In this document: in pieces, positions 46,072-51,224 of the stretch
Layout of the letters: the number at the start of each line of letters is the position of its first letter
Numbering within the stretch: the first letter of the stretch is position 1
Source of the DNA: a virus
Virus record (IMG/VR): IMGVR_UViG_3300045988_162923
Reading direction: 5' to 3' (one strand)
Length of the DNA: 64,000 bases
Notes under the pieces: generated by a model
What the model saw: only the letters and a program-made list of their open reading frames with translations
Database searches by the model: none
What the model was told of the DNA's origin: nothing
Made by a program: the position numbers and the translations under genes

Positions 46072-47250
46072 TTAATAATTTTTTAACATTGTGCTAGTAA
46101 TTTGATAATAACCGCCTCTCATAGGTTTTCCGTTTTCAACTAGATACTCCAAGAGTTCTGGGCTATTTAATTCTGCTTCTAATTTATCTAAATCATCAGC
46201 AGTTGCATATAAACCAGAATATACAAAAACCTCTGGACCTACTCTCACATAAGGAATTTTATCAGGGGTAATTGTTGTTGAAATAACTAATTTTTCTTTA
46301 TTCATATTAACTAAACCTTGAGAACGACCAAATTCAAACCATTTTGTACTACCAGTAATAGAACGATTTTTTAGATGTTCTTTATTAGCCAGCATATAAG
46401 CGTAAGTCTTAGGTGCTGATTTCAATTCTTCTTCTGTGTGAGGTGGAACAATACACTCTTTCCATTCCTAGGTACCAGCTTTAATAATGGGGTGGACAAA
46501 AGTATCCTCCAAATCATTAAAATTATCTTTAATAAAAATTCGGTCTGCTAATGTTGCGATACCATTTTGCAGACTTTCATAAGATAATCCAATTTTCTCT
46601 CTAGTATTACTCCAAGGGATTTGAATACTGGTTTTTACTTTTGATAATCCAACAATGCCAGTATATGTGGAAAATCCATCAAATAATTGCTCTTTTGTGA
46701 AATCTTCAAAATACCAAAGTAAATTATTTTTTTCAATATCTTCCCTCATTTTTTTACCGCTAGTATTTTGAATAAAAGAAAGCGGAGAAATATATAATAG
46801 ACTTCCAGTTGGTTTCAAAAATTTTTGACCAAGTTCATAAAAGGCATAATATAAATCATACATACCAAAACAATAAGAATATTGTTCAATTTCTTGTTTT
46901 GTCTCTGGCATTAGATTATGAATGCGCACATATGGCGGATTTCCAATAACATAATCAAATTTACCAAACCATTCAGTTTGTTTAAAAGCTGAGCCTAAAA
47001 TTACATTATCTGATGGTAATATATTTTGCACTTTTTCGATGATATCAGCATCAATGTCAATAGCAAAAATATGTTCTTTTGGAATGCCTCTATTTAAAAG
47101 TCCCGTAATAAATGCTCCATCGCCACAACTATTATCTAAAAATAGAGATGTATTAATTTCTTTTTGGGTTAAATTTAAAATATCAATCATATGATTGACA
47201 ATAGTATCTGGGGTCATAACTTGACCATAGTTTTTTACTTTATCAAACAT
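46072..47250 (-). CDS. gamma-class N6-adenine DNA methyltransferase (1 in-frame TAG)
   Basis: VMTPDTIVNHM (motif X), LDNSCGDGAF (motif I), VIGNPPYV (motif IV NPPY). TAG at 46468-46470 joins the same-frame C-terminal ORF 46072..46425. Confidence 0.8.
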
Positions 47251-47854
47251 TTTCTTTTAAACCTCCTATAAATTGCATAATTGCATCAGTTAAACAAGGA
47301 GAGATATTATCTTCACAATATTGTGCAGTAAAGTTATCATAATCCACTTCAAAATAATATGGGATAAAAGTTAATAAATCCCAGTAAGTAGATTTATAGG
47401 TTAAAAAGTTTTTATAATTATCCTTGCTTTTTTGAGTAGGAGTCTCAAAAACTACTTCACCATTACTCTTTTTATGATGAACCTTAGTGGGAATAAAAAT
47501 TATTTGCATAATAGGGATACCGGCATTTATAAATAAATCAGATTCACCCTTCATATTTTCATAATAATTATTTGCATTTTTATTATATTCAGAGCGAATT
47601 CCCTTAAAATTGATAGCTCCTACAAATTTATCATCATTAAAAATGGCAATATCAACTTTTTTAGAGCCATAAGCCCCAATAAACTCATATTCTGAATTGC
47701 ACAAACTTCGAGTGGAAAAACCTTCTTTTTCCACAAGTTCAGCAATTTTAGAATGAATTGGTTCTAATAATTTGGAAGAGCGAGTCGTGGCAAGACCATA
47801 TTTTTTTTCTGCAACTGCTTTAAATTGGTCGGCAAACAACTGTTGAAATTCCAT
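47243..47854 (-). CDS. hypothetical protein, candidate restriction endonuclease partner of adjacent MTase
   Basis: Overlaps the MTase start by 8 nt (operon-like); VDIAIFNDDKFVGAINFKG is a possible PD-(D/E)xK core; no recognised family. Confidence 0.3.
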   Translation of the reverse strand: MEFQQLFADQFKAVAEKKYGLATTRSSKLLEPIHSKIAELVEKEGFSTRSLCNSEYEFIGAYGSKKVDIAIFNDDKFVGAINFKGIRSEYNKNANNYYENMKGESDLFINAGIPIMQIIFIPTKVHHKKSNGEVVFETPTQKSKDNYKNFLTYKSTYWDLLTFIPYYFEVDYDNFTAQYCEDNISPCLTDAIMQFIGGLKENV

Positions 47855-47940
47855 ATTTTCTCCCCTTTTTTATATTATATCAAAAACTTTAGCTAAAGTC
47901 AATTTTTTCTTATACCATATGTTTTATAAAATTTCAAATT

Positions 47941-48177
47941 TTATGATTTGCACTCCGACCAATTAACACAATCAATTGGACCGCGATCATCAACTTCCCA
48001 ATCATCAATTAAAAGGTCTAATTCATCTATGTATTCATTATCATAAAGAAAATCAATTGGATTTTCTTTAAATTTTTCAAATTCTTCATCAGGTACTTCT
48101 ATAACTCCTTCTAAATGACCATAACGTAAATGCCCAGCTACATATTCAAGAGGAGCATCAATTAAGATTTTTTTCAT
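47941..48177 (-). CDS. acidic hypothetical protein (78 aa)
   Basis: Intact ORF. Confidence 0.3.
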   Translation of the reverse strand: MKKILIDAPLEYVAGHLRYGHLEGVIEVPDEEFEKFKENPIDFLYDNEYIDELDLLIDDWEVDDRGPIDCVNWSECKS

Positions 48178-48194
48178 ATTATTTCCCTTCTTTA

Positions 48195-48268
48195 TTCTAT
48201 AAATATATTATAACATATTTTTTATAAAAATACAAAAAAATAAAGGACTGAATTTCTTCAGTCCTTTA
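48195..48268 (-). promoter_or_regulatory. terminator hairpin plus conserved promoter cassette
   Basis: AAAGGACTGAAGAAATTCAGTCCTTT hairpin then ...TATAAAAAATATGTTATAATATATTTATAGAATAAAGAAGGGAAAT. Confidence 0.5.
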
Positions 48269-48273
48269 AAGAG

Positions 48274-49380: not shown

Positions 49381-49444
49381 TACTTTATCTCCTTTGAATT
49401 ATGAGGTATAAAATACCTATTTGTGTAGAGTATTTTCATACTCT

Positions 49445-49522
49445 TGGAGGTAAGAGACAGATTCGAACTGTCGAAATAACGATTTTGCAGACCGTCCTCT
49501 TAAACCACTTGAGTATCTTACC
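49445..49522 (-). tRNA. tRNA-Cys (anticodon GCA)
   Basis: Hand-folded cloverleaf: acceptor GGTAAGA/TCTTACC, anticodon stem ACGGT/ATCGT, loop CTGCAAA, T-arm GACAG-TTCGAAT-CTGTC, discriminator T plus CCA. Confidence 0.75.
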
Positions 49523-49544
49523 AACTTTAGTATTTATTAAGTTA

Positions 49545-50402
49545 TTATACAGAATTTTTTAATTCTGTATAATAACTTACGAAATCTCCTTTACCAAACC
49601 CTGGAGTTGCCGTATTTCTTTCTGCTAAAGCATTAAAATCCATTGTTAAAATAATTTTTTCAGCTTCTTCAGTTAATGGTTTTATAAAAAAGAATTGCTA
49701 TTTTTTAGCCCCAATCATATTAGATTTAATTAAATCATAATCTTTTCGAGTAAAAATTTTATTATAATCATGATATCCCTGTCGATATGTAGCATATTTC
49801 CAATCTTCTTCTACATATTTTACAGCCGCTTCAGTGGCATTATATTGCCAAATTTTAAAATCAGGATGAGTAATTGGAGGCTATTTAACTAAACGTAAAT
49901 TTATTCCTACATCATACTAACTATTTTTCTTTACCCAAATCTAAAATACAGTACGAACACTATATGGTTTTCCATTAGAAGAAAAAGATTCAGGTTCTAA
50001 GTATAAATAATCATATAAAGCAAAATTATCAGCTAGATTTTTTTGAACGCTCCATTTCATAAAAGAAACTGGAACAATAAAAGCAATTACATCTGACATA
50101 GTCGAAGCTTTATTAAAAAAATCAATTGCTAACTTAGAACGATTTCCAAAAGGTGGATTTCCTATTGTGATAAAATCAGTTTTATCTGTCTAATAATCTA
50201 AATAATCTTGCTATTGGATAAGACTATTTTCTGGAGCTATATCTAAAGCGATATAATTAGAAAGAAAAGGTAAAAAAGATCCATCTCCGGCGCTTGGTTC
50301 TAAATAAGTTATATTATCTGGAATATTTAATTTTGAAGTTAAATATTCAAAACATTTCTAAGAGATATGACTTTGAGTATAAAATTTATCTAATTCTGGC
50401 AT
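49545..50402 (-). CDS. gamma-class N6-adenine DNA methyltransferase (about 9 in-frame TAG)
   Basis: GGAGG RBS; LEPSAGDGSFL (motif I) and TIGNPPFG (motif IV NPPF) after reading TAG as sense; TAA stop at 49545. Confidence 0.7.
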
Positions 50403-50405
50403 ATA

Positions 50406-51224
50406 TCAGTCCTCCAAAAATATTCTAATAGTAGGATTATTAAGACCAACTCCATTTTGCCAACTTATTGCTACTCTAATATTACCAATAATAAGCCCTT
50501 TTGAAGTATTTTGAATGTTTGTAGATATATTATCTTTAAAAGATTTAAGATTAATTTCTCTAACTTTCTTTTTTTTATAATTTAAAACAATCAATCTATC
50601 AGGAGAAGTTTTTTTACTTGTAATTGTATTTTTATTAAGCATATCAGAAATAAATTCATAAACTTTATTTGGATTATTTGAAAAATAATTAACCAAATCT
50701 TCTATAAAAATATTTCTCATTTTTTCATCAACGGGCTTAATAATTTTCTCATATTCTTTTTCATAAGTATGACGAATAAAAGAAGAAGTTTCTTGACTTA
50801 CAGGAGAATTATTTTTTCTATTTACTTTTATTTCTGATCCAAAAGAACAAGATTCAATAGCTTCATATAAACCATATTTTTCCATGTATTTTTTAAAATC
50901 AAAACCAAATTTTAAAAAATAATAAATTGAAGTATTAAAATAAGTTCCAGATCCCGCGCTTACTCCTTTAATTTCAACAACTTCATCATTATCTAAAAGA
51001 ATATCTCCTGATTCGGTAGCAGTATGATTTCCCAAATAAGTTGCTGTATGTTTTCCTAAAAAATCAGCAATCATCTTGCCTTCTTCATATAAAGTTTTTT
51101 GTTCTTCGGAAGAAAAAGAATAATTTTCATTAAACTCAACTTCTGAATTATTCAAATTTGCTACTACGCAACATTCTCGATATTTACCAAAATATTGGTT
51201 ATCTTTTCGATTATTAGAAGGCAT
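50406..51224 (-). CDS. hypothetical protein, candidate restriction endonuclease (PD-ExK-like) partner of downstream MTase
   Basis: AAGGAG RBS; GDILLDNDEVVEIKG is a possible D...EVK core; stop 3 nt before the MTase start. Confidence 0.3.
   Translation of the reverse strand: MPSNNRKDNQYFGKYRECCVVANLNNSEVEFNENYSFSSEEQKTLYEEGKMIADFLGKHTATYLGNHTATESGDILLDNDEVVEIKGVSAGSGTYFNTSIYYFLKFGFDFKKYMEKYGLYEAIESCSFGSEIKVNRKNNSPVSQETSSFIRHTYEKEYEKIIKPVDEKMRNIFIEDLVNYFSNNPNKVYEFISDMLNKNTITSKKTSPDRLIVLNYKKKKVREINLKSFKDNISTNIQNTSKGLIIGNIRVAISWQNGVGLNNPTIRIFLED

What the first reader, a model, noticed from the sequence alone, without database searches (positions are those of the whole stretch)
46072..51224. Two candidate REase plus gamma-class N6A-MTase pairs bracketing the SLH gene and tRNA cluster; both MTases contain TAG codons
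Each MTase (NPPY/NPPF, motif I before IV) is preceded by a tightly coupled upstream ORF with weak PD-(D/E)xK-like cores. That is the layout of type II R-M operons. Because the MTases need amber suppression, methylation would be coupled to the recoded translation state. The upstream ORFs could instead be non-nuclease partners (orphan MTases for anti-restriction).
Basis: partly seen in the sequence, partly recalled or inferred. Interest (0 to 1): 0.5.

Follow-up and report, generated by a model that had tools for sequence, protein, structure and literature searches.

The report
Two phage-borne restriction-modification gene pairs
A large gut-type phage that reads the stop codon TAG as glutamine carries two restriction-enzyme-plus-DNA-methylase operons; the nuclease genes never contain TAG while the protective methylase genes do, so the phage may be able to make the cutter before the protector.

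Summary
On the minus strand lie two tightly coupled gene pairs: R1 (47243-47854) plus M1 (46072-47250), and R2 (50406-51224) plus M2 (49545-50402). M1 has one in-frame TAG and M2 has seven. Both have gamma-class N6-adenine methyltransferase motifs and match REBASE-derived Type II methyltransferase models.

R1 and R2 match no sequence family, but confident structure models show restriction-endonuclease folds. R2 resembles HinP1I and MspI, with invariant E17, D74 and E84-x-K86. R1 resembles AgeI, NgoMIV, Cfr10I and NucC, with invariant D68, K84 and E99/E104.

Both pairings are conserved across related 100-197 kb phage contigs, and a natural R2-M2 fusion protein exists. So these are most likely two Type II R-M systems with new endonuclease sequence families, found here only in this phage clade.

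TAG means Gln: M2 codon 154 aligns with Gln in 52 of 53 homologues. Across recoded relatives, R2 genes have 0 TAG among 55 Gln-type codons and M2 genes have 20 among 97 (p = 8e-5). This suggests, but does not prove, that the nuclease is translatable before amber suppression starts and the methylase only afterwards. Recognition sites, enzyme activity and timing are untested.

The parts
47243..47854 (-). R1: 203-aa candidate Type II restriction endonuclease with no TAG codons
46072..47250 (-). M1: 392-aa gamma-class N6-adenine DNA methyltransferase (Eco57I/TaqI-like) with one in-frame TAG at 46468-46470 (codon 261)
   Evidence: Pfam Eco57I 1.2e-21. PADLOC MTase_II 2.3e-41. The TAG aligns with CAG (Gln) in the near-identical L023. 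The part after the TAG is as conserved as the part before it. The start overlaps the R1 stop by 8 nt.
50406..51224 (-). R2: 272-aa candidate Type II restriction endonuclease (HinP1I/MspI-like fold) with no TAG codons
49545..50402 (-). M2: 285-aa gamma-type N6-adenine DNA methyltransferase (NPPF) with seven in-frame TAG codons at 50358-60, 50211-13, 50190-92, 49941-43, 49917-19, 49881-83 and 49698-700
   Evidence: PADLOC PDLC03274 Type II methyltransferase 9.9e-54, full length. phrog_5172 2e-46. The family profile hits METTL5 at 1.5e-5 and M.TaqI at 4e-3 in the PDB. With TAG read as Gln the sequence is identical to database protein P0245. TAG154 aligns with Gln in 52 of 53 homologues.
47874..47902 (-). 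Near-consensus sigma-70-type promoter (TTGACT, 17 nt spacer, TG-n-TATAAT) 20 nt upstream of R1
   Evidence: It scores 11 of 12 with an extended -10. It is one of only about seven intergenic sites of this quality on the minus strand of the 64-kb window. This is a consensus match only.
52282..52310 (-). Promoter of the same type upstream of tRNA-Gly. It possibly drives tRNA-Gly, tRNA-Lys, tRNA-Ala, R2, M2, tRNA-Cys and the SLH gene
   Evidence: No terminator-like site is found on the minus strand between it and 48268-48241, apart from a hit inside tRNA-Lys. Co-transcription is inferred.
48241..48268 (-). Intrinsic-terminator-like hairpin after the SLH gene. It separates the upstream unit from the 78-aa ORF and the R1-M1 unit
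   Evidence: 12-bp stem followed by a T run.

Best explanation
The region holds two independent Type II (separate-subunit) restriction-modification operons carried by a TAG-to-Gln recoded large phage. Each operon encodes a small Mg-dependent PD-(D/E)xK endonuclease, followed by a translationally coupled gamma-class N6-adenine DNA methyltransferase that would protect the phage's own DNA.

Shown here:
- the gene layout;
- the methyltransferase identity;
- nuclease folds with invariant catalytic-type residues;
- conserved linkage of R and M, and a natural R2-M2 fusion;
- TAG standing for Gln.

Inferred mechanism: virion DNA arrives already methylated. The nucleases attack unmethylated DNA in the infected cell, meaning the host chromosome and competing phages. 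Both R genes are free of TAG and sit behind near-consensus host-type promoters. The M genes need amber suppression: M2 from codon 15, and M1 for its C-terminal target-recognition part. So the nuclease can be made in the standard-code state, and full-length methylase only after the code switch. That is when the TAG-containing replication genes are also translated and new unmethylated phage DNA appears.

The confidence of 0.75 applies to the assignment as two Type II R-M systems. The nuclease-first timing step is rated separately at about 0.3.
For: Methyltransferases:
- M1 hits Pfam Eco57I at 1e-21.
- M1 and M2 hit PADLOC Type II methyltransferase models at 2e-41 and 1e-53.
- The M2 family profile hits m6A methyltransferases in the PDB.

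Nucleases:
- Both models are high-confidence.
- Top structural matches are restriction endonucleases.
- Acidic and lysine residues are invariant.

Linkage:
- R2-like plus M2-like genes are adjacent, 0-4 nt apart (9 nt in L043, and the two genes overlap in L036), in the window, L001/L002, L007-L011, L017-L019, L036 and L038-L043.
- R1-like plus a 382-394-aa NPPY- or NPPF-motif methyltransferase are adjacent in all of L003-L006 and L021-L035.
- P0381 is a 566-aa R2-M2 fusion.
- In Mycoplasmopsis cynos an M2 homologue is likewise preceded by an overlapping ORF with a PD...EVK motif.

Recoding:
- TAG154 of M2 aligns with Gln in 52 of 53 homologues.
- TAG261 of M1 corresponds to CAG in L023.

Asymmetry:
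- R2 genes have 0 TAG versus 55 CAA/CAG codons. M2 genes have 20 TAG versus 77 CAA/CAG codons. Fisher p = 8e-5, or p = 1e-3 counting only the 14 distinct alignment columns.
- RecJ, primase and helicase genes in the window carry TAGs.

Promoters.
Against: - No activity, recognition sequence or methylation data exist.
- Some distant R2-like genes (L014-L016, L020, L037) have no adjacent methyltransferase, and L012/L013 carry a frameshifted copy.
- For pair 1 the TAG dependence is polymorphic. Close relatives have 0 TAG in M1, and R1 has few Gln codons, so that asymmetry is not significant.
- The near-consensus promoters also precede genes that contain a TAG.
- No suppressor tRNA(CUA) lies in the window.
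- Expression timing is wholly inferred. R made before M is risky once unmethylated phage DNA appears.
Confidence: 0.75

Rival explanations
1. The methyltransferases are anti-restriction (orphan-type) enzymes that protect phage DNA from host enzymes. The upstream PD-(D/E)xK proteins are nucleases with another job, such as non-specific host-DNA degradation, recombination or repair, or homing-type mobility. They would be linked to the methylases by co-transfer, not by shared specificity.
For: M2-family methylases occur alone in many cultured phages, including rV5-like phages and the jumbo phage Erwinia Kaldavass. Solitary R2-like genes exist. The top R1 match, NucC, is not a restriction enzyme. 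No known REase sequence family matches R1 or R2.
Against: Pairing is strict across 36-98% protein identity, with 0-9-nt gaps or overlaps. A natural R2-M2 fusion protein exists. The best R2 fold matches are sequence-specific Type IIP enzymes of the same size. A non-specific nuclease would not need a dedicated, translationally coupled methylase.
Confidence: 0.15
2. The cassettes are decaying remnants. M2, with seven stops, and M1, with one, are pseudogenes, and the nucleases are inactive.
For: Under the standard code both M genes are interrupted.
Against: In-frame TAG is genome-wide in long conserved genes such as RecJ, primase, helicase and tail fibre. The TAGs in M2 fall at Gln-conserved columns. 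The regions after the TAGs are conserved in frame. The catalytic motifs of both M and both R are intact and invariant.
Confidence: 0.02
3. M2 is an RNA (rRNA or tRNA) m6A methyltransferase of the METTL5 type, and R2 acts on RNA or has a role unrelated to DNA.
For: The best PDB sequence-profile hits of the M2 family are METTL5 and its archaeal homologues (1.5e-5 to 2e-4), ahead of M.TaqI at 4e-3. The gene sits within a tRNA cluster.
Against: M2 matches a REBASE-derived Type II DNA methyltransferase model over its full length at 1e-53. The METTL5 similarity covers only the N-terminal Rossmann half. M2 is partnered and fused with a restriction-endonuclease fold.
Confidence: 0.04

Closest known systems
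Type IIP R-M operons with the R gene first and overlapping the M gene, e.g. Eco29kI (PMC3113576)
   Same: Two separate small proteins, the endonuclease gene upstream, overlapping or abutting reading frames, and no specificity or helicase subunit.
   Different: These operons are in a lytic-type phage genome, not a plasmid or chromosome. The endonucleases belong to unannotated sequence families. The methylase reading frames contain TAG codons that need amber suppression. No controller (C) protein is seen.
R.HinP1I (1ynm, 2fkc) and R.MspI (1sa3), monomeric 4-bp cutters
   Different: Identity is 13-16%. No Pfam or HMM match. R2 is paired with an N6-adenine methylase, whereas HinP1I and MspI systems use C5-cytosine methylases (own knowledge). 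The recognition site is unknown.
Cfr10I / NgoMIV / Bse634I / AgeI / Kpn2I / PspGI group of Type II REases, and the CBASS effector NucC
   Different: R1 is shorter at 203 aa. No sequence similarity is detectable. No cyclic-nucleotide context exists. The partner is an Eco57I/TaqI-type m6A methylase.
M.TaqI / Eco57I-family gamma-class N6-adenine methyltransferases
   Same: Motif order is X, then I, then IV (NPPY or NPPF), with a C-terminal recognition domain. M1 passes the Pfam Eco57I threshold.
   Different: M2 belongs to a divergent family with no Pfam model. It is recognised only by PADLOC PDLC03274 and phrog_5172.
Chlorovirus R-M systems, e.g. PBCV-1 CviAII (own knowledge)
   Same: The virus encodes a Type II endonuclease plus a cognate m6A methylase. 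The endonuclease degrades unmethylated host DNA early, while the viral DNA is methylated.
   Different: Those are eukaryotic algal viruses. The enzymes are delivered in the virion or expressed early from ordinary genes, with no genetic-code switch involved.
Code-15 (TAG to Gln) recoded phages, in which TAG avoidance marks genes needed in the standard-code state (Borges et al., 10.1101/2021.08.26.457843)
   Same: TAG occurs in-frame in many genes. Specific gene families such as integrases significantly avoid TAG, which is read as a timing device.
   Different: That paper does not mention restriction or methyltransferase genes. Here the contrast lies within a single two-gene operon.

Membership tests
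Type II restriction-modification system (separate R and M) | DNA methyltransferase with an AdoMet-binding motif I and catalytic motif IV (D/N/S)PP(Y/F/W) | tested here: met
   M1 has DNSCGDGAF and NPPY. M2 has EPSAGDGSF and NPPF. Pfam Eco57I 1e-21. PADLOC MTase_II 2e-41 and 1e-53.
Type II restriction-modification system (separate R and M) | Partner protein with a nuclease fold and conserved catalytic residues | tested here: met
   Predicted structures have pLDDT 90-91 and match restriction endonucleases. R2 has invariant E17, D74, E84 and K86. R1 has invariant D68, K84 and E99/E104. This rests on prediction, not an experimental structure.
Type II restriction-modification system (separate R and M) | R and M genes adjacent, co-oriented and inherited together | tested here: met
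   Exceptions are the solitary or frameshifted R2-like genes in L012-L016, L020 and L037.
Type II restriction-modification system (separate R and M) | No ATPase/helicase (Type I/III Res, HsdR) or specificity subunit | tested here: met
   R1 is 203 aa and R2 is 272 aa, each a single-domain model. No such domains appear in Pfam, NCBIfam or PADLOC scans. The neighbours are tRNAs, an SLH protein and a DUF2828 protein.
Type II restriction-modification system (separate R and M) | R cleaves a defined sequence and is blocked by the cognate M's methylation | not testable with these tools
   Palindrome statistics of the window give no assignable site. TGCA, CTAG and GATC are depleted.
Gamma-class N6-adenine (amino) methyltransferases | Linear order of motif X, motif I, motif IV, then the target-recognition domain | tested here: met
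   M1: VMTP at 11-14, motif I at 39-47, NPPY at 104-107, C-terminal domain. M2: FYTQ at 7-10, motif I at 35-43, NPPF at 82-85, with a conserved C-terminal half containing FQIW and PGFGK.
HinP1I / MspI endonuclease families (Pfam R-HINP1I, Endonuc-MspI) | Sequence match to the family model | tested here: not met
   No Pfam hit for R2 at E <= 1. The R2 family profile finds no REase in PDB sequences. The similarity is at fold level only.
Cfr10I/NgoMIV-type endonucleases | Sequence match, or the family's recognition motif | tested here: not met
Code-15 (TAG = Gln) recoded phage | In-frame TAG at positions that are Gln in homologues, in many otherwise intact genes | tested here: met
   P0245 is identical to M2 when TAG is read as Gln.
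Code-15 (TAG = Gln) recoded phage | Phage-encoded suppressor tRNA(CUA) | tested here: not met
   None is found in this 64-kb window by ARAGORN (with or without introns) or Rfam. The rest of the roughly 160-197-kb genome was not available.

The most novel reading that the evidence does not exclude
The phage uses its genetic-code switch as the timer of an inverted R-M programme. From one operon, the TAG-free endonuclease is translated at once in the standard-code cell and destroys unmethylated host or rival DNA. The TAG-interrupted methylase is made only once amber suppression is on, just as phage replication starts. This would be the first R-M system regulated by codon reassignment, and a new function for stop-codon recoding.
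Probability: 0.3. Interest if true: 0.75.

Novelty: new variant of a known kind. Interest (0 to 1): 0.55.

Why it matters
Complete R-M systems are uncommon in bacteriophages. Here a whole clade of 100-197 kb recoded phages keeps one, and this member keeps two, in a variable island that in relatives also holds extra methylases and GmrSD-like proteins.

The two endonucleases define sequence families that current annotation resources do not recognise. They are therefore candidates for new specificities.

The consistent contrast between TAG-free R and TAG-bearing M gives a concrete, testable example of what stop-codon recoding might regulate beyond lysis and structural genes. It could also explain how a virus can safely use a restriction enzyme offensively.

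Tried and rejected
1. Sequence-family searches of R1 and R2 found nothing useful. These covered Pfam, NCBIfam, PHROGs, PADLOC, PDB by single sequence and by family profile, and tblastn against INPHARED phages and PLSDB plasmids. The only hit was R1 against an unannotated PHROG.

2. The genome-contig scan for R2 gave only three small MAG contigs. At least one (L036) is clearly a fragment of a related recoded phage, so there is no evidence for a bacterial reservoir.

3. Source names for the NCBI-held homologues: none are named.

4. Palindrome depletion, as a route to the recognition site, was uninformative. TGCA, CTAG and GATC are depleted, which more likely reflects host systems or general bias.

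5. A search for a suppressor tRNA in the window found none.

6. The pseudogene reading of the M genes was rejected.

7. The L019 'R-M fusion' was rejected as evidence. The join is two TAG codons in a locus with few other TAGs, so it is probably an ordinary stop. P0381 is a fusion with no Gln at the junction.

8. The hypothetical protein upstream of the M2 homologue in the Helicobacter phage is unrelated to R2.

9. Promoter strength is not a clean marker of TAG-free genes.
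Full report
**What is there**

The window is AT-rich (about 30% GC) with nearly all genes on the minus strand. Treating TAG as a sense codon raises minus-strand ORF coverage from 43.9 to 55.9 kb. Many long conserved genes then contain in-frame TAGs. Examples, identified by reading their translations, are a RecJ-like exonuclease with 15 TAGs, primase, DnaB-type helicase and a tail-fibre-like protein.

The finding's interval holds, in transcription order:
- tRNA-Ala;
- R2 (50406..51224, 272 aa);
- M2 (49545..50402, 285 aa, ATG 3 nt after the R2 TGA);
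- tRNA-Cys;
- an SLH-domain protein;
- a terminator-like hairpin;
- a 78-aa acidic ORF;
- a near-consensus promoter;
- R1 (47243..47854, 203 aa);
- M1 (46072..47250, 392 aa, ATG overlapping the R1 stop by 8 nt).

M1 has one in-frame TAG at codon 261. M2 has seven, at codons 15, 64, 71, 154, 162, 174 and 235. R1 and R2 have none. Two details differ: only tRNA-Cys lies between the pairs, and the nuclease motifs are strong, not weak.

**The methyltransferases**

M1 passes the Pfam Eco57I threshold at 1.2e-21. It matches PADLOC Type II methyltransferase models at 2e-41.

M2 has no Pfam or NCBIfam match. It does match PADLOC PDLC03274 'Type II methyltransferase' over its full length at 9.9e-54, and phrog_5172 at 2e-46. 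It belongs to a large family of 2,397 representative clusters. That family's profile finds the m6A enzymes METTL5 (1.5e-5) and M.TaqI (4e-3) among solved structures.

Both proteins show the gamma-class motif order: X, then I, then IV (NPPY or NPPF), then a C-terminal recognition part.

**TAG codes for glutamine and the M genes are intact**

- M2 with TAG read as Gln is 100% identical to database protein P0245.
- TAG154 of M2 lies in the FQIW motif, where 52 of 53 homologues have Gln. TAG64 lies in a column where Gln is the commonest residue.
- TAG261 of M1 is CAG in the 96-98%-identical gene of L023.
- The 131 residues of M1 after the TAG are as conserved as the 260 before it: 57-72% versus 59-62% identity to distant homologues.

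The pseudogene reading is therefore rejected.

**The upstream ORFs are restriction-type nucleases by fold**

Neither R1 nor R2 matches any annotated model in Pfam, NCBIfam, PADLOC or PHROGs (R1 hits only an unannotated PHROG), nor any PDB sequence. This holds even with family profiles.

Both have many unnamed metagenomic homologues: 165 for R2 and 116 for R1. Wherever the contig is long it is 100-197 kb.

R2:
- The alignment has invariant E17, D74, E84 and K86, giving D-x9-E-x-K.
- These residues persist in homologues down to 29% identity, including solitary copies and a fusion protein.
- Foldseek independently gives HinP1I at E 3.8e-5, probability 1.0.

R1:
- The alignment has invariant E55, D68, F83-K84, YNKN(A)NN, E99 and E104.
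- From my own knowledge of Cfr10I and NgoMIV, that lineage completes its active site with a glutamate from the helix after the x-x-K strand. This fits D68, K84 and E99/E104 in R1. The placement is an inference, because I could not inspect model coordinates.

**Linkage**

R2-like genes are followed by an M2-like NPPF methylase of 278-292 aa, usually 0-4 nt downstream (9 nt in L043; the genes overlap in L036). This holds in the window, L001/L002, L007-L011, L017-L019, L036 and L038-L043. It spans 33-82% R2 identity.

R1-like genes are followed by a 382-394-aa NPPY or NPPF methylase in every one of L003-L006 and L021-L035.

P0381 is a 566-aa protein with a full-length R2-like N-terminal half, catalytic residues intact, and an M2-like C-terminal half. 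It has no Gln at the junction, so it is a true fusion.

In Mycoplasmopsis cynos an M2 homologue is preceded by an overlapping 262-aa ORF unrelated to R2. That ORF carries PD-x11-EVK. The M2 family therefore also occurs in a cellular R-before-M arrangement.

Counter-examples exist:
- R2-like genes of 38-40% identity with no adjacent methylase (L014-L016, L020, L037).
- A frameshifted copy in L012/L013.
- M2-family methylases that appear solitary in cultured phages.

R1 and R2 were not found in 50,697 phage records or 72,556 plasmids. R2 was found in only three small MAG contigs among 185,579 species genomes, and at least one is a fragment of a related recoded phage. Both endonuclease families were found only on phage-type contigs, but only R2 was searched against bacterial genomes.

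**The locus is a variable island**

In relatives the stretch between the tRNA cluster and the DUF2828 gene always has R2-M2. It then varies:
- a 182-aa ORF plus another Type II methylase (PDLC03255, 6e-42) plus a small NPPF protein in L001;
- a second M2 paralogue in L010;
- a GmrSD_N/DUF262 protein in L036 and L043;
- SLH plus R1-M1 in the window.

**The TAG asymmetry**

Take the seven lineages where M2 has at least one TAG: the window, L001, L007, L009, L036, L039 and L040. There, R2 genes have 0 TAG versus 55 CAA/CAG codons. M2 genes have 20 TAG versus 77 CAA/CAG codons (Fisher p = 8e-5). Counting only the 14 distinct alignment columns with TAG gives p = 1e-3.

A TAG at the Gln of the N-terminal FYTQ motif recurs in five lineages.

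R1 and R2 are compositionally like TAG-bearing genes: low GC and CAA-preferring. They are unlike the GC-richer, CAG-preferring TAG-free block at 23.5-45.9 kb. So their lack of TAG is not explained by belonging to that class.

For pair 1 the evidence is weak. M1 TAGs sit at four different positions (9, 29, 91, 261) in different close relatives and are absent in others. R1 has only about 7 Gln codons.

**Mechanism proposed**

Shown: two R-then-M operons; full-length M requires TAG read-through; R does not.

Established knowledge: without a suppressor, TAG terminates translation. Recoded phages are thought to switch code during infection, and gene families needed before the switch avoid the recoded codon (10.1101/2021.08.26.457843).

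Inferred:
1. The operons are transcribed by host RNA polymerase from near-consensus TTGACT-17-TGnTATAAT promoters.
2. R is translated at once and cuts unmethylated host or competitor DNA, while the incoming methylated genome is immune.
3. M appears after the switch, together with the TAG-containing replication proteins, in time to protect progeny DNA.

This is the reverse of the M-first logic of plasmid-borne systems. It is functionally analogous to chlorovirus R-M systems (own knowledge).

Weaknesses:
- the promoters also precede TAG-containing genes;
- no suppressor tRNA is in the window;
- an internal promoter-like site (50463-50436) could drive M2 separately;
- timing is untested.

**Comparison and novelty**

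As systems these are Type II R-M pairs, laid out like Eco29kI with R first and overlapping M (PMC3113576).

As families, M1 is an ordinary Eco57I/TaqI-type enzyme. M2 belongs to a REBASE-represented but Pfam-less family. R1 and R2 are new sequence families with known folds. Membership in the HinP1I, MspI or Cfr10I families by sequence was tested and not met.

Neither a full-text search for papers combining stop-codon recoding with restriction and methyltransferase terms (the single hit was irrelevant) nor the founding recoding paper describes R-M genes in recoded phages. I rate this a new variant of a known kind. The R-M assignment has about 0.75 confidence. The code-switch timing idea has about 0.3.

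Noticed in passing
window 52318-52692 (-): ARAGORN with introns allowed finds a type-II-like tRNA (long variable arm) split by a 287-nt intron in the anticodon loop. ARAGORN reads the anticodon as UCA. If the intron follows U34, as in classical tRNA-Leu(UAA) group I introns, the anticodon is UAA (Leu). Rfam reports no group I intron there, even at E <= 1.
   Followed up: partly
window 52840-52960 (-): Behind its own promoter-like site (53015-52987) lies a T-arm, acceptor and CCA-like sequence (GCAGGTTCGAATCCTGCCCTCCCCACCA). It is followed directly by a sequence that looks like a tRNA 5' half (GGCGGAGGTAGGGAAGTGGTTAAACCC). Neither ARAGORN nor Rfam calls a gene here, and the two halves do not pair as one acceptor stem.
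   Followed up: partly
window 54169-54705 (-): ARAGORN with introns predicts a tRNA-Asn(GUU) with a 440-nt intron that overlaps a 93-aa ORF (54222-54503). It may be spurious.
   Followed up: no
window 47941-48177 (-): A 78-aa ORF lies between the SLH gene and R1. It is very acidic: 22 of 78 residues are D or E, for a net charge of about -15. It has no family match. Its size and charge are typical of DNA-mimic anti-restriction proteins, but that is only a guess.
   Followed up: partly
window 23495-45939 and 48274-49380 versus the rest: There are two compositional gene classes. One is GC-richer (0.34-0.44), uses CAG for Gln almost exclusively and has no TAG; it includes the SPFH/flotillin-like, NAMPT-like, 828-aa, DUF2828 and SLH genes. 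The other is AT-rich, prefers CAA and often contains TAG. The gyrA and gyrB genes (13265-18260) are AT-rich but TAG-free, unlike the neighbouring RecJ, primase and helicase genes.
   Followed up: partly
window 58680-58652, 52310-52282, 47902-47874, 34647-34619, 19386-19358, 11713-11685 (-): A recurring near-consensus promoter (TTGAC[T/A], 17 nt, TATAAT, with TG before the -10 in five of the six) marks a handful of intergenic sites. It suggests a defined set of transcription units driven by host RNA polymerase.
   Followed up: partly
whole window: The 4-bp palindromes TGCA (observed/expected 0.35), CTAG (0.49) and GATC (0.52) are strongly under-represented. This may reflect restriction pressure from hosts.
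   Followed up: no
L001 7686-9614; L010 5647-6441; L036 5733-6755; L043 4167-5177: In related phages the same island carries other cargo downstream of R2-M2. L001 has a 182-aa unknown ORF plus a second Type II methylase plus a small NPPF protein. L010 has an M2 paralogue. L036 and L043 have GmrSD_N/DUF262 proteins.
   Followed up: partly
L003-L006, L032-L034: In a more distant phage group the R1-like/M1-like pair sits directly upstream of the gyrB-gyrA genes. It lies downstream of a nucleoside 2-deoxyribosyltransferase gene, and a xanthine/uracil permease gene lies about 5 kb upstream.
   Followed up: no
window 44407-45939 (-) and L001, L036, L039-L041: A 510-aa DUF2828/DUF7788 protein is the conserved, always TAG-free neighbour that bounds the island in all relatives.
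   Followed up: no
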